Assembly (NCBI RefSeq): GCF_009914755.1
Contig: NC_060935.1
Direction: 5' to 3' (one strand)
Source of the DNA: the human T2T-CHM13v2.0 reference genome, Homo sapiens
DNA: 64,000 bases
Numbering within the stretch: the stretch's first letter is position 1; every line of letters starts with the position of its first letter. This document shows, one piece after another, positions 1 to 64,000 of the stretch. Below the pieces are notes generated by a model. That model made no database searches, was not told the DNA's origin, and worked only from the letters and a program-made list of their open reading frames with translations. The translations under genes and the position numbers were made by a program.

Positions 1-3000
1 TGGGTTGGTTCCAAGTCTTTGCTATTGTGAATAGTGCCACAATAAACATACGTGCGCATGGGTCTTTATAGCAGCATGATTTATAATCCTTTGGGTATAT
101 ACCCAATAATGGGATTGCTGGGTCAAATGGTATTTCTAGTTCTAGATCCCTGAGGAATCGCCACACTGACTTCCACAATGGTTGAACTAGTTTACAGTCC
201 CACCACCAGTGTAAAAGTGTTCCTGTTTCTCCACATCCTCTCTAGCACCTGTTGTTTCCTGATTTTTAATGATTGGCATTCTCACTGGTGTAAGATGGTA
301 TCTCATTGTGATTTTGATTTGCATTTCTCTGATGGCCAGTGATGATGAGCATTTTTTCATGTGTCTGTTGGCTGCATAAATGTCTTCTTTTGAGAAGTGT
401 CTGTTCATATCCTTCGCCCACTTGTTGATGGGGTTGTTTGTCTTTTTCTTGTAAATTTGTTTGAGTTCATTGTAGATTCTGGATATTAGCCCTTTGTCAG
501 ATGAGTAGATTGCAAAAATTTTCTCCCATTCTATAGGTTGGCTGTTCACTCTGATGGTAGTTTCTTTTGCTGTGCAGAAGCTCTTTAGTTTAATTAGATC
601 CCATTTGTCAATTTTGTCTTTTATTGCCATTGCTTTTGGTGTTTTGGACATGAAGTCCTTGCCCATGCCTATGTCCTGAATGGTAATGCCTAGGTTTTCT
701 TCTAGGGTTTTTATGGTTTTAGGTCTAACGTTTAAGTCTTTAATCCAACTTGAATTGATTTTTGTGTAAGGTGTAAGGAAGGGATCCAGTTTCAGCTTTC
801 TACATATGGCTAGCCAGTTTTCCCAGCACCATTTATTAAATAGGGAATCCTTTCCCCATTGCTTGTTTTTCTCAGGTTTGTCAAAGATCAGATAGTTGTA
901 GATATGCGGCGTTATTTCTGAGGGCTCTGTTCTGTTCCATTGATCTATATCTCTGTTTTGGTACCAGTACCATGCTGTTTTGGTTACTGTAGCCTTGTAG
1001 TATAGTTTGAAGTCAGGTAGTGTGATGCCTCCAGCTTTGTTCTTTTGGCTTGGGATTGCCTTGGCGATGCAGGCTCTTTTTTGGTTCCATATGAACTTTA
1101 AAGTAGTTTTTTCCAATTCTGTGAAGAAAGTCACTGGTAGCTTGATGGGGATGGCATTGAATCTGTAAATTACCTTGGGCAGTATGGCCATTTTCACGAT
1201 ATTGATTCTTCCTACCCATGAGCATGGAATGTTCTTCCATTTGTTTGTATCCTCTTTTATTTCCTTGAGCAGTGGTTTGTAGTTCTCCTTGAAGAGGTCC
1301 TTCACATCCCTTGTAAGTTGGATTCCTAGGTATTTTATTCTCTTTGAAGCAATTGTGAATGGGAGTTCACTCATGATTTGGCTCTCTGTCTGTTGTTGGT
1401 CTATAAGAATGCTTGTGATTTTTGTACATTGATTTTGTATCCTGAGAGTTTGCTGAAGTTGCTTATCAGCTTAAGGAGATTTTGGGCTGAGACAATGGGG
1501 TTTTCTAGATATACAATCATGTCATCTGCAAACAGGGACAATTTGACTTCCTCTTTTCCTAATTGAATACCCTTTATTTCCTTCTCCTGCCTGATTGCCC
1601 TGGCCAGAACTACCAACACTATGTTGAATAGGAGTGGTGAGAGAGGGCATCCCTGTCTTGTGCCAGTTTTCAAAGGGAGTGCTTCCGGTTTTTGCCCATT
1701 CAGTATGATATTGGCTGTGGGTTTGTCATAGATAGCTCTTATTATTTTGAAATACGTCCCATTAATACCTAATTTATTGAGAGTTTTTAGCATGAAGGGT
1801 TCTTGAATTTTGTCAAAGGCCTTTTCTGCATCTATTGAGATAATCCTGTGGTTTTTGTCTTTGGCTCTGTTTATATGCTGGATTACATTTATTGATTTGC
1901 GTATATTGAACCAGCCTTGCATCCCAGGGATGAAGCCCACTTGATCATGGTGGATAAGCTTTTTGATGTGCTGCTGGATTCGGTTTGCCAGTATTTTATT
2001 GAGGATTTTTGCATCAATGTTCATCAAGGATATTGGTCTAAAATTCTCTTTTTTTGTTGTGTCCCTGCCCGGCTTTGGTATCAGAATGATGCTGGCCTCA
2101 TAAAATGAGTTAGGGAGGATTCCCTCTTTTTCTATTGATTGGAATAGTTTCAGAAGGAATGGTACCAGTTCCTCCTTGTACCTCTGGTAGAATTCGGCTG
2201 TGAATCCATCTGGTCCTGGACTCTTTTTGGTTGGTAAACTATTGATTATTGCCACAATTTCAGCTCCTGTTATTGGTCTATTCAGAGATTCAACTTCTTC
2301 CTGGCTTAGTCTTGGGAGAGTGTATGTGTCGAGGAATGTATCCATTTCTTCTAGATTTTCTAGTTTATTTGCGTAGAGGTGTTTGTAGTATTCTCTGATG
2401 GTAGTTTGTATTTCTGTGGGATCGGTGGTGATATCCCCTTTATCATTTTTTATTGTGTCTATTTGATTCTTCTCTCTTTTTTTCTTTATTAGTCTTGCTA
2501 GTGGTCTATCAATTTTGTTGATCCTTTCGAAAAACCAGCTCCTGGATTCATTAATTTTTTGAAGGGTCTTTTGTGTCTCTATTTCCTTCAGTTCTGCTGT
2601 GATTTTAGTTATTTCTTGCCTTCTGCTAGCTTTTGAATGTGTTTGCTCTTGCTTTTCTAGTTCTTTTAATTGTGATGTTAGGGTGTCAATTTTGGATCTT
2701 TCCTGCTTTCTCTTGTGGGCATTTAGTGCTATAAATTTCCCTCTACACACTGCTTTGAATGTGTCCCAGAGATTCTGGTATGTTGTGTCTTTGTTCTCGT
2801 TGGTTTCAAAGAACATCTTTATTTCTGCCTTCATTTCGTTATGTATCCAGTAGTCATTCAGGAGCAGGTTGTTCAGTTTCCATGTAGTTGAGCGGTTTTG
2901 AGTGAGATTCTTAATTCTGAGTTCTAGTTTGATTGCACTGTGGTCTGAGAGATAGTTTGTTATAATCTCTGTTCTTTTACATTTGCTGAGGAGAGCTTCC

Positions 3001-3624
3001 AAGTATGTGGTCAATTTTGGAATAGGTGTGGTGTGGTGCTGAAAAAAATGTATATTCTGTTGATTTGGGGTGGAGAGTTCTGTAGATGTCTATTAGGTCC
3101 GCTTGGTGCAAAGCTGAGTTCAATTCCTGGGTATCCTTGTTGACTTTCTGTCTCATTGATCTGTCTAATGTTGACAGTGGGGTGTTAAAGTCTCCCATTA
3201 TTATTGTGTGGGAGTCTAAGTCTCTTTATAGGTCACTCAGGACTTGCTTTATGAATCTGGGTGCTCCTGTATTGGGTGCATATATATTTAGGATAGTTAG
3301 CTCTTCTTGTTGAATTGATCCATTTACCATTATGTAATGGCCTTCTTTGTCTCTTTTGATCTTTGTTGGTTTAAAGTCTGTTTTATCAGAGACTAGGATT
3401 GTAACTCCTGCCTTTTTTTGTTTTCCATTTGCTTGGTAGATCTTCCTCCATCCCTTTATTTTGAGCCTGTGTGTGTGTCTGCACGTGAGATGGGTCTCCT
3501 GAATACAGCACACTGATGGGTCTTGACTCTTTATCCAATTTGCCAGTCTGTGTCTTTTAATTGGAGCATTTAGTCCATTTACATTTAAAGTTAATATGGT
3601 TATGTGTGAATTTGATCCTGTCAT
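1..3624 (-). pseudogene. ORF2: LINE-1 ORF2 (endonuclease-RT-CCHC), disrupted
   Basis: Starts MTGSNSHITIL at 3624. Lesions: TAA at 3226-3228 (Q133*), 5-bp deletion ~2997, TAG at 1401-1403, 4-bp deletion ~1389, 1-bp deletion ~262, TAG at 242-244. RT FADD motif present in the 1401-3014 fragment. Confidence 0.95.
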
Positions 3625-3687
3625 TATGATGTTAGTCAGTTATTTTGCTCATTAGTTGATGTAGTTTCTTCCTAGTCTCGATGGTCT
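3625..3687 (-). other. 63-bp ORF1-ORF2 intergenic spacer (repeated in every complete unit)
   Basis: Exactly 63 bp between the ORF1 stop and the ORF2 ATG, the canonical length for hominoid L1. Confidence 0.9.
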
Positions 3688-61920: not shown

Positions 61921-61923
61921 TTC

Positions 61924-64000
61924 GCCACATTTTCTTAATCCAGTCTATCGTTGTTGGACATTTGGGTTGGTTCCAAGTCTTTGCTATTGTGAATAGTGCC
62001 ACAATAAACATACGTGCGCATGGGTCTTTATAGCAGCATGATTTATAATCCTTTGGGTATATACCCAATAATGGGATTGCTGGGTCAAATGGTATTTCTA
62101 GTTCTAGATCCCTGAGGAATCGCCACACTGACTTCCACAATGGTTGAACTAGTTTACAGTCCCACCACCAGTGTAAAAGTGTTCCTGTTTCTCCACATCC
62201 TCTCTAGCACCTGTTGTTTCCTGATTTTTAATGATTGGCATTCTCACTGGTGTAAGATGGTATCTCATTGTGATTTTGATTTGCATTTCTCTGATGGCCA
62301 GTGATGATGAGCATTTTTTCATGTGTCTGTTGGCTGCATAAATGTCTTCTTTTGAGAAGTGTCTGTTCATATCCTTCGCCCACTTGTTGATGGGGTTGTT
62401 TGTCTTTTTCTTGTAAATTTGTTTGAGTTCATTGTAGATTCTGGATATTAGCCCTTTGTCAGATGAGTAGATTGCAAAAATTTTCTCCCATTCTATAGGT
62501 TGGCTGTTCACTCTGATGGTAGTTTCTTTTGCTGTGCAGAAGCTCTTTAGTTTAATTAGATCCCATTTGTCAATTTTGTCTTTTATTGCCATTGCTTTTG
62601 GTGTTTTGGACATGAAGTCCTTGCCCATGCCTATGTCCTGAATGGTAATGCCTAGGTTTTCTTCTAGGGTTTTTATGGTTTTAGGTCTAACGTTTAAGTC
62701 TTTAATCCAACTTGAATTGATTTTTGTGTAAGGTGTAAGGAAGGGATCCAGTTTCAGCTTTCTACATATGGCTAGCCAGTTTTCCCAGCACCATTTATTA
62801 AATAGGGAATCCTTTCCCCATTGCTTGTTTTTCTCAGGTTTGTCAAAGATCAGATAGTTGTAGATATGCGGCGTTATTTCTGAGGGCTCTGTTCTGTTCC
62901 ATTGATCTATATCTCTGTTTTGGTACCAGTACCATGCTGTTTTGGTTACTGTAGCCTTGTAGTATAGTTTGAAGTCAGGTAGTGTGATGCCTCCAGCTTT
63001 GTTCTTTTGGCTTGGGATTGCCTTGGCGATGCAGGCTCTTTTTTGGTTCCATATGAACTTTAAAGTAGTTTTTTCCAATTCTGTGAAGAAAGTCACTGGT
63101 AGCTTGATGGGGATGGCATTGAATCTGTAAATTACCTTGGGCAGTATGGCCATTTTCACGATATTGATTCTTCCTACCCATGAGCATGGAATGTTCTTCC
63201 ATTTGTTTGTATCCTCTTTTATTTCCTTGAGCAGTGGTTTGTAGTTCTCCTTGAAGAGGTCCTTCACATCCCTTGTAAGTTGGATTCCTAGGTATTTTAT
63301 TCTCTTTGAAGCAATTGTGAATGGGAGTTCACTCATGATTTGGCTCTCTGTCTGTTGTTGGTCTATAAGAATGCTTGTGATTTTTGTACATTGATTTTGT
63401 ATCCTGAGAGTTTGCTGAAGTTGCTTATCAGCTTAAGGAGATTTTGGGCTGAGACAATGGGGTTTTCTAGATATACAATCATGTCATCTGCAAACAGGGA
63501 CAATTTGACTTCCTCTTTTCCTAATTGAATACCCTTTATTTCCTTCTCCTGCCTGATTGCCCTGGCCAGAACTACCAACACTATGTTGAATAGGAGTGGT
63601 GAGAGAGGGCATCCCTGTCTTGTGCCAGTTTTCAAAGGGAGTGCTTCCGGTTTTTGCCCATTCAGTATGATATTGGCTGTGGGTTTGTCATAGATAGCTC
63701 TTATTATTTTGAAATACGTCCCATTAATACCTAATTTATTGAGAGTTTTTAGCATGAAGGGTTCTTGAATTTTGTCAAAGGCCTTTTCTGCATCTATTGA
63801 GATAATCCTGTGGTTTTTGTCTTTGGCTCTGTTTATATGCTGGATTACATTTATTGATTTGCGTATATTGAACCAGCCTTGCATCCCAGGGATGAAGCCC
63901 ACTTGATCATGGTGGATAAGCTTTTTGATGTGCTGCTGGATTCGGTTTGCCAGTATTTTATTGAGGATTTTTGCATCAATGTTCATCAAGGATATTGGTC
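61924..64000 (-). mobile_element. L1 monomer, unit 12 (partial, cut by window end)
   Basis: ORF2 C-terminal and RT fragments identical to other units. Confidence 0.95.
61924..64000 (-). pseudogene. ORF2: LINE-1 ORF2 3' half, disrupted (window-truncated)
   Basis: RT and C-terminal fragments with the same stops and frameshifts. Confidence 0.93.

What the first reader, a model, noticed from the sequence alone, without database searches (positions are those of the whole stretch)
1..64000. A macrosatellite made purely of near-full-length LINE-1: at least 11 head-to-tail 5,633-bp copies
Seen: uninterrupted direct repeats of one L1 monomer, with no unique flanking DNA, poly(A) tails or per-copy TSDs, and an identical junction 11 times. 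Known: L1 spreads by TPRT, giving dispersed copies that each have a poly(A) and TSD, and it cannot produce identical ORF2-dead, tail-less tandem copies. Inference: a retrotransposon has been converted into a satellite by DNA-level amplification (unequal crossover or rolling circle). This would be a nascent TE-derived macrosatellite carrying a promoter and an intact gene in each unit. It would collapse in short-read assemblies and be annotated by RepeatMasker as ordinary L1 hits. I do not know of a described array with this monomer, but I cannot search.
Basis: partly seen in the sequence, partly recalled or inferred. Interest (0 to 1): 0.92.

Follow-up and report, generated by a model that had tools for sequence, protein, structure and literature searches.

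The report
Tandem array of a hybrid LINE-1
This stretch of human chromosome 11 is a real, very young tandem array of a 5.6-kb LINE-1-derived unit that grew by unequal crossing-over after one LINE-1 landed inside another, but the array itself was already described in a 2026 preprint.

Summary
The window is filled by head-to-tail 5,633-bp LINE-1 units on the minus strand, with 11 identical junctions in the window. There are 17 junctions in the whole CHM13 genome, all at this one locus, giving 16 full units that differ at only 11 columns.

Each unit carries a complete 5'UTR, an open 338-aa ORF1 (15 of 16 units) and a broken ORF2 that is cut at about residue 1224 of 1275.

The array edges, which lie outside the window, show the origin:
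- A full-length L1 ("L1b") inserted by ordinary target-primed reverse transcription into ORF2 of an older, 5'-truncated L1 ("L1a") in the same orientation.
- Its poly(A) tail and the second copy of the 13-nt target site sit after the last unit.
- The repeated junction is simply the 5' junction of that insertion.
- The monomer is a chimera, L1b-like for nt 1 to about 5038 and L1a-like for 5039-5618. That is what unequal crossover between the two overlapping L1s predicts.

The array is not new. Yang et al. (bioRxiv, May 2026; PMC13192797) report 16 units in hs1 and 0-15 units across 94 haplotypes. In the parts of that text I read or term-searched, the nested-insertion origin is not stated.

The parts
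1..64000 (-). Interior of the array: partial unit M12 (1-5579), full units M11 to M02 (5580-61908), partial unit M01 (61909-64000). The whole array (16 full units, chr11:94155415-94245541) runs beyond the window on both sides. Its edge features lie outside the window and are listed with genome coordinates in the full report.
   Evidence: Junction 28-mer starts at 5580, 11213, 16846, 22479, 28112, 33745, 39378, 45011, 50643, 56276 and 61909. The 10 full units differ at 7 columns. There are 17 junctions genome-wide. The 16 units have 11 variable columns.
5580..11212 (-). Representative unit (M11), as cut at the end of the junction 28-mer.
5580..5607 (-). Junction. The first 13 nt (AAGAAAATGTGGC) are the L1a ORF2 target site. 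The next 15 nt (GAAGGAGGAGCCAAG) are the 5' end of L1b.
   Evidence: Read. In the terminal unit, homology to the monomer ends after the 13th base and ORF2 runs on.
10338..11227 (-). L1 5'UTR of the unit (890 nt), starting at the very 5' end of the element.
   Evidence: In the script's phase (monomer nt 1-500), the first 500 nt have 25 CpG and observed/expected 0.61.
9321..10337 (-). ORF1, 338 aa, open.
   Evidence: Pfam trimerisation, RBD-like and dsRBD-like L1 domains, E 4e-32 to 8e-65. PDB 2yko LINE-1 ORF1p, E 3.5e-139.
5595..9257 (-). ORF2 remnant. It has an in-frame stop after codon 132 and three frame changes (near monomer nt 2490-2600, 4110-4176 and 5339-5390). It is cut off at about residue 1224 of 1275.
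   Evidence: Stop-to-stop frames. Pfam endonuclease and RT. Alignments to PDB ORF2p residues 196-741, 742-1124 and 1132-1225.
5595..6174 (-). L1a-derived tail of the unit (monomer nt 5039-5618).
   Evidence: 2 of 580 columns differ from edge unit U, against 31 of 581 from terminal unit T.

Best explanation
The array is a DNA-level tandem amplification seeded by a nested retrotransposon insertion.

Proposed sequence of events:
1. An older L1 (L1a), 5'-truncated at about monomer nt 2871, lay at this site.
2. A full-length L1 (L1b) later inserted by ordinary target-primed reverse transcription into L1a's ORF2, in the same orientation. This duplicated the 13-nt target AAGAAAATGTGGC.
3. That left two direct repeats of about 2.75 kb (L1a nt 2871-5618 and L1b nt 2871-5618), 5-7% diverged and offset by 5,633 bp.
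4. An out-of-register crossover between them made the first hybrid unit, L1b nt 1 to about 5038 joined to L1a nt 5039-5618. It also made a second copy of the L1a-target/L1b-head junction.
5. Further unequal exchanges between the now near-identical units expanded the array to 16 units in CHM13 and homogenised it. They also rewrote the inner parts of the two edge units.

Steps 1 and 2 are shown by the sequence. Steps 3 to 5 are inferred from the mosaic pattern.

The units cannot retrotranspose on their own. ORF2 is broken and truncated, and there is no 3' end. They keep a complete 5'UTR and usually an open ORF1. No function is shown.
For: **One founding TPRT event**
- After terminal unit T, the L1 runs on past the junction point through 361 nt of ORF2 end and 3'UTR to a run of 13 A.
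- Then come GAAAATATGGC and the continuation of an L1 ORF2 and 3'UTR, exactly from where edge unit U stops.
- Read with the last two A's of the run, the second target copy matches the junction copy at 12 of 13 positions.
- In the sequence the target is preceded by TT. By my recollection this fits the L1 endonuclease preference TT/AAAA.

**Two different elements**
- U starts at monomer nt 2871 next to non-L1 DNA, while the units start at the L1 5' end.
- The L1b tail and the L1a tail differ at 43 of 361 columns.

**Chimeric monomer** (differing columns of compared columns)

| Segment (monomer nt) | Monomer vs T | Monomer vs U |
|---|---|---|
| 1-2870 | 0/2870 | not present in U |
| 2871-3598 | 0/728 | 55/732 |
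| 3599-5038 | 2/1440 | 3/1440 |
| 5039-5618 | 31/581 | 2/580 |

**Independent age signal**
- I counted amino-acid mismatches to solved human ORF2p from the printed midlines.
- They run 2.1% (nt 2587-3598), 3.6% (3599-4176) and 4.2% (4188-5039), then jump to 10.6% (5040-5321) and 8.6% (5339-5617).
- U's own old segment shows about 12%.

**Recent exchange**
- The 16 units differ at 11 columns, with mean pairwise 2.02 differences (3.6e-4 per site), and 6 units are identical.
- Variants recur in a two-unit register: column 964 in M11, M13 and M15; column 1835 in M02 and M04.

**Population data**
- The preprint reports 0-15 units in 94 haplotypes at this locus (PMC13192797, section 10).
Against: - The founding breakpoint cannot be fixed from CHM13 alone. 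Between nt 3599 and 5038, U, T and the monomers are nearly identical, so both edge units have been overwritten there. Placing the switch at about 5038 rests on the amino-acid divergence step, which I counted by eye.
- Only one haplotype was examined here.
- Gene conversion, rather than crossover, could have produced the edge mosaics.
- A replication-based template switch between the two L1s would give the same first hybrid.
- The three bases (GAA) between the target and the conserved L1 head are unexplained.
- The preprint calls the units L1HS. I could not run RepeatMasker or compare with subfamily consensus sequences, so the subfamily and the age of L1b are open.
Confidence: 0.85

Rival explanations
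1. Assembly artefact: the assembler over-expanded one or two L1 copies into a false array.
For: The units are almost identical, which is the kind of sequence assemblers handle worst. No reads could be examined here.
Against: The units carry 11 private or shared variant columns in a structured order. The edges join the flanks in perfect register. An independent study found the array with 0-15 units in 94 other long-read haplotypes (PMC13192797).
Confidence: 0.02
2. Rolling-circle or extrachromosomal-circle amplification: a circularised L1 fragment was replicated into a concatemer and reintegrated.
For: It would also give identical head-to-tail junctions. It is listed as a proposed route for tandem TEs in McGurk and Barbash 2018 (passages).
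Against: The junction is not a circularisation scar. It is the 5' junction of a normal insertion, and its partner poly(A) and target copy lie at the array's end. The array sits in register between the two halves of L1a. The edge units are mosaics with array sequence, as exchange between neighbours predicts. Two-unit variant registers fit stepwise exchange.
Confidence: 0.05
3. Serial retrotransposition: many L1 copies inserted one after another at the same hotspot.
For: Double insertion at one site is a known source of tandem non-LTR elements in Drosophila.
Against: No internal unit has a poly(A) tail, a 3'UTR or its own target duplication. All 17 junctions are identical to the base. Every unit carries the same ORF2 lesions and the same L1a-derived tail. 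An RNA copy of such a unit would lack a 3' end.
Confidence: 0.01
4. The first duplication arose by replication template switching or non-homologous end joining, with homologous exchange responsible only for later growth.
For: The outcome of a template switch between the two overlapping L1s is the same hybrid. The CHM13 sequence cannot tell the two apart.
Against: 2.75 kb of 93-95% identical direct repeat is an ample substrate for homologous exchange. The junction shows no added breakpoint beyond the TPRT one.
Confidence: 0.07

Closest known systems
[quoted passage not shown] I read the abstract and all of section 10, plus passages of the discussion, methods and figure legends.
   Same: It is the same locus (hs1 chr11:94,140,954-94,254,695). 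The paper reports 16 back-to-back units in hs1, units over 5 kb with a 5'UTR and intact ORF1 but not intact ORF2, older L1s (L1PA2 and L1P1) on the flanks, and amplification independent of retrotransposition.
   Different: A term search of the main text found no occurrence of 'TSD', 'target site duplication', 'unequal', 'NAHR' or 'non-allelic', and 'nested' only in another sense. So the nested-insertion origin, the chimeric make-up of the unit and the mosaic edge units are not stated in the text I could see. It labels the units L1HS, which I could not test.
Double insertion of transposable elements as seed of satellites (McGurk and Barbash 2018, PMC5932611; passages read), including the Drosophila R1 tandem array and a 13-19-copy hobo array.
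   Same: There are two independent insertions with different 5' truncation. A target-site copy is held in every junction, and expansion is by unequal exchange.
   Different: There the second element lands at the same target site beside the first, giving tail-to-head or tail-to-internal junctions. Here it landed inside the first, so the junction is internal-ORF2-to-head and the unit loses the 3' end.
Human macrosatellites and TE-bearing megasatellites (Warburton et al. 2008, PMC2588610, passages; Hoyt et al. 2021 preprint 10.1101/2021.07.12.451456, passages).
   Same: These are kilobase units in head-to-tail arrays, variable in copy number and ascribed to unequal crossing-over. Some units contain L1 pieces (for example the 9q32 5.5-kb unit with L1MA7 in Warburton's table).
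   Different: Those units are composites of several repeats and unique DNA. This unit is L1 sequence only and keeps an open ORF1. The Hoyt preprint text has no 'chr11' hit. In Warburton's text the single 'chr11' hit was a 42-bp VNTR at 11q23.2 and '11q21' had none (12 of 15 matched places shown).
'LINE-1 arrays' of Soares et al. 2018 (PMC5848613; passages).
   Same: Only the name.
   Different: Those are regions over 100 kb with more than 70% LINE content built by many separate insertions. They are not tandem copies of one unit.

Membership tests
LINE-1 (primate L1PA/L1HS lineage) | ORF1p with trimerisation, RRM-like and C-terminal domains | tested here: met
   Pfam PF17489, PF02994 and PF17490, all above cut-off. 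PDB 2yko, E 3.5e-139.
LINE-1 (primate L1PA/L1HS lineage) | ORF2p with endonuclease and reverse transcriptase | tested here: met
   PF03372 and PF00078 match pieces of the broken frame. Alignments to human ORF2p residues 196-1225. The frame is broken and lacks about the last 51 codons.
LINE-1 (primate L1PA/L1HS lineage) | Each copy ends in a poly(A) tail and is flanked by a target-site duplication | tested here: not met
   No internal unit has either. Only the founding insertion has them, at the array's end. The units are L1-derived DNA, not separate insertions.
L1HS subfamily (label used in the preprint) | Subfamily-diagnostic positions, chiefly in the 3'UTR | not testable with these tools
   The units lack the 3'UTR, and no L1 consensus library or RepeatMasker is available here.
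Macrosatellite | Kilobase-sized unit in an uninterrupted head-to-tail array | tested here: met
   16 units of 5,633 bp.
Macrosatellite | Copy number varies between individuals | not tested
   Reported as 0-15 units in 94 haplotypes (PMC13192797). Only CHM13 was available to me.
TE double-insertion-derived tandem array (McGurk and Barbash) | Target-site copy inside the tandem junction | tested here: met
   The 13-nt target occurs in all 17 junctions and once more after the poly(A) tail.
TE double-insertion-derived tandem array (McGurk and Barbash) | Two independent insertions (distinct 5' ends, distinct sequence) | tested here: met
   L1a starts at nt 2871 and L1b at nt 1. They differ at 5-12% of columns outside the homogenised stretch.
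TE double-insertion-derived tandem array (McGurk and Barbash) | Both insertions use the same genomic target site, side by side | tested here: not met
   The second element inserted within the first. The mechanism is alike, but the geometry is a variant.

The most novel reading that the evidence does not exclude
The array may be more than a structural curiosity. In CHM13, 16 copies (15 array units plus the terminal L1b) carry a full 5'UTR and an open ORF1. They could make this a copy-number-polymorphic source of ORF1p and of L1 sense and antisense RNA, and so modify L1 control or local chromatin between people. Separately, the two non-mixing unit groups reported in the population may be two independent founding crossovers at different points of the L1a/L1b overlap. 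That would make the locus a natural replicate of satellite birth in humans.
Probability: 0.1. Interest if true: 0.6.

Novelty: already known. Interest (0 to 1): 0.3.

Why it matters
The locus catches a transposon turning into a satellite at an early stage in humans, with every intermediate part still readable: the target site, the poly(A) tail, both parent elements and the hybrid unit. This gives a concrete mammalian case of the 'two insertions, then unequal exchange' route, which the paper I read documents in Drosophila.

It also matters in practice. Such arrays inflate counts of 'young full-length L1', collapse in short-read data, and add many ORF1-coding, promoter-bearing copies that vary between people.

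The existence and polymorphism of the array are already published, so the remaining value lies in the origin model and in functional tests.

Tried and rejected
- **Tandem Repeats Finder** gave no rows because its longest period is 500. I used lag identity and the junction k-mer instead.
- **Literature searches** for an earlier or other description found nothing beyond the 2026 preprint:
  - 'TE-derived macrosatellite': 0 papers.
  - T2T, composite and macrosatellite terms.
  - LINE-1, tandem array and macrosatellite terms.
  - L1HS, tandem, chr11, VNTR, T2T and '5.6 kb'.
  - PANX1, LINE-1, tandem, copy number and long-read: 0 papers.
  - Six phrasings of 'L1 array' or 'tandem L1'.
  - Nested insertion, unequal crossover and tandem array terms: three unrelated papers.
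- **HPRC2 preprint:** I checked its passages for chr11 and L1HS. They do not mention this locus.
- **Soares 2018 'LINE-1 arrays'** turned out to be dense clusters of separate insertions, not tandem arrays.
- **Serial retrotransposition and circularisation** were considered and set aside for the reasons given under the rival explanations.
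Full report
**Observation**

The window (T2T-CHM13 chr11:94178001-94242000) is one uninterrupted tandem repeat.
- Self-identity is 0.932 at a shift of 5633 bases and 0.27-0.37 at the neighbouring shifts tried.
Ten spacings separate them: nine of 5633 and one of 5632. None was found in 100 shuffles.
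- The 10 complete units in the window differ at only 7 of 5633 columns.
- Tandem Repeats Finder returned nothing because its period limit is 500.

**Anatomy of a unit**

The L1 lies on the minus strand.
- The unit begins at the very 5' end of an L1, with an 890-nt 5'UTR.
- Next comes a 338-aa ORF1 that carries the three Pfam L1 ORF1 domains. It matches solved human ORF1p (2yko, E 3.5e-139).
- ORF2 follows and matches human ORF2p residues 196-1225. It has an in-frame stop after codon 132 and three frame changes.
- ORF2 stops at about residue 1224 of 1275, where the next unit's 5' end follows directly.
- No unit has a 3'UTR, a poly(A) tail or its own target duplication.

**Extent**

In the whole assembly the junction word occurs 17 times, all between chr11:94155415 and 94245569.
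- I fetched the rest of the locus and cut it at the junctions. This gives 16 full units at chr11:94155415-94245541: 15 of 5633 bp and one of 5632 bp, with 11 variable columns.
- Mean pairwise difference is 2.02 sites (3.6e-4 per site). There are 10 distinct sequences, and 6 units are identical.
- ORF1 is open at 338 aa in 15 of 16 units and in the terminal unit. Unit M13, outside the window, has a premature stop.
- Some variants recur every second unit: column 964 in M11, M13 and M15; column 1835 in M02 and M04. This fits exchanges offset by two units.
- By inference only, at roughly 0.5e-9 substitutions per site per year the pairwise difference puts the average common ancestry of the units within a few hundred thousand years.

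**Edges and origin**

The edge features lie outside the window, so they are given in genome coordinates. All are on the minus strand.

| Feature | chr11 coordinates |
|---|---|
| Edge unit U (L1a nt about 2871-5618 plus junction) | 94245542-94248304 |
| Terminal unit T (monomer nt 1-5618) | 94149797-94155414 |
| L1b ORF2 end and 3'UTR (361 nt) | 94149436-94149796 |
| Run of 13 A | 94149423-94149435 |
| GAAAATATGGC (second target copy) | 94149412-94149422 |
| Rest of L1a ORF2 and 3'UTR (360 nt) | 94149052-94149411 |

- Upstream, in L1 sense, the array ends in unit U. It starts only at monomer nt 2871, next to DNA with no similarity to the monomer.
- Downstream, the last unit T does not stop at the junction point. 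It runs on through the L1b tail to the 13 A's.
- With the preceding A's, GAAAATATGGC is a 12-of-13 copy of the 13-nt word that precedes every L1 head in the array.
- The rest of L1a starts exactly where U stops. It has its own A-run and is followed by non-L1 DNA.

So a full-length L1 (L1b) inserted by normal target-primed reverse transcription into an older, 5'-truncated L1 (L1a) in the same orientation. The 'junction' is the 5' junction of that insertion. In the sequence the target is preceded by TT. By my recollection this fits the L1 endonuclease preference.

**The unit is a chimera**

The table gives differing columns out of compared columns, by segment.

| Segment (monomer nt) | Monomer vs T | Monomer vs U |
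|---|---|---|
| 1-2870 | 0/2870 | not present in U |
| 2871-3598 | 0/728 | 55/732 |
| 3599-5038 | 2/1440 | 3/1440 |
| 5039-5618 | 31/581 | 2/580 |

- The monomer is therefore L1b-like at its head and L1a-like in its last 580 nt.
- This is the product expected from an out-of-register crossover between L1a and L1b.
- Each such exchange also copies the junction.
- The near-identity of all three in nt 3599-5038 means the inner parts of U and T have since been overwritten by exchange with array units. So the founding breakpoint cannot be read directly.

An independent signal places the breakpoint near nt 5038. I counted amino-acid mismatches to solved ORF2p from the printed alignments.

| Stretch (monomer nt) | Mismatch to ORF2p |
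|---|---|
| 2587-3598 | 2.1% |
| 3599-4176 | 3.6% |
| 4188-5039 | 4.2% |
| 5040-5321 | 10.6% |
| 5339-5617 | 8.6% |
| U's own old segment | about 12% |

The two 3' tails differ at 43 of 361 columns. This confirms that L1a and L1b are separate elements.

Two sites (nt 4100 and 4160) are shared by U and T but differ in all 16 units. That is expected if one variant unit later took over the interior.

**Rivals**

- An assembly artefact is unlikely. The variants are ordered, the edges are in register, and independent haplotypes have been reported.
- Serial retrotransposition is excluded by the lack of tails and by identical lesions in every unit.
- Rolling-circle amplification is unnecessary and does not predict an array sitting in register between the halves of L1a with mosaic edges.
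- A replication template switch for the very first step cannot be told apart from homologous exchange with this one haplotype.

**What is known**

The array is in print: Yang et al., bioRxiv, May 2026 (PMC13192797). I read the abstract and all of section 10, plus passages of the discussion, methods and legends.
- It gives hs1 chr11:94,140,954-94,254,695, with 16 back-to-back 'L1HS' copies.
- It reports 0-15 units in 94 HPRC haplotypes and two non-mixing unit groups.
- The units retain the 5'UTR and ORF1, and the flanks are L1PA2 and L1P1.
- It concludes that local duplication amplifies L1 independently of retrotransposition.
- It states that hg38 holds no resolved L1HS copy here.
- A term search of its main text found no mention of target-site duplication, TSD, unequal exchange or NAHR. 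The origin worked out here seems to be an addition.

By my recollection of GRCh38 coordinates, the PANX1-IZUMO1R interval there is about 89 kb shorter than the 212.7 kb implied by the hub's table. That is about 16 units. This is recalled, not tested.

The closest mechanism in print is double insertion followed by unequal exchange in Drosophila (McGurk and Barbash 2018, passages). The present case differs in that the second element landed inside the first.

Other searches found no earlier description.
- The Hoyt T2T repeat preprint has no chr11 hit.
- The only chr11 hit in Warburton 2008 was a 42-bp VNTR at 11q23.2 (12 of 15 matched places shown).

**Verdict**

What is added here is the founding event, the chimeric unit and the mosaic edges. 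No function is shown.

Noticed in passing
window 5907-5914 and every 5633 bases on (hub's mask list): NCBI's soft-mask breaks for 8 bases once per unit. The break is not at the junction but about 300 bases inside the L1a-derived tail (monomer nt about 5299-5306). The repeat masker therefore seems to split each unit into two L1 hits near the old/young boundary region.
   Followed up: partly
window 10786-10980 (unit M11), plus strand; monomer nt 427 to 233 antisense: A 64-aa antisense ORF lies in the 5'UTR of each unit. By my recollection it resembles the primate L1 ORF0 peptide. It was not compared with any reference.
   Followed up: no
window 10430-10750, minus strand: A 106-aa sense ORF lies inside the 5'UTR of every unit. 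It is probably a chance frame and was not searched.
   Followed up: no
chr11:94172314-94177946 (unit M13, just below the window): This is the only unit whose ORF1 is interrupted. A C-to-T change at monomer column 1020 leaves a 248-aa frame.
   Followed up: yes
whole unit, sense strand: Each unit holds 15 AATAAA and 5 ATTAAA words but lacks the L1's own 3' end. Transcripts from a unit's promoter would either stop at internal signals or read into the next unit. Only the terminal unit has a normal 3' end.
   Followed up: no
window 1-64000, plus strand: The array lies inside an intron of the predicted lncRNA LOC105369435 (hub table) and is antisense to it. No exon of that model falls in the window.
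   Followed up: no
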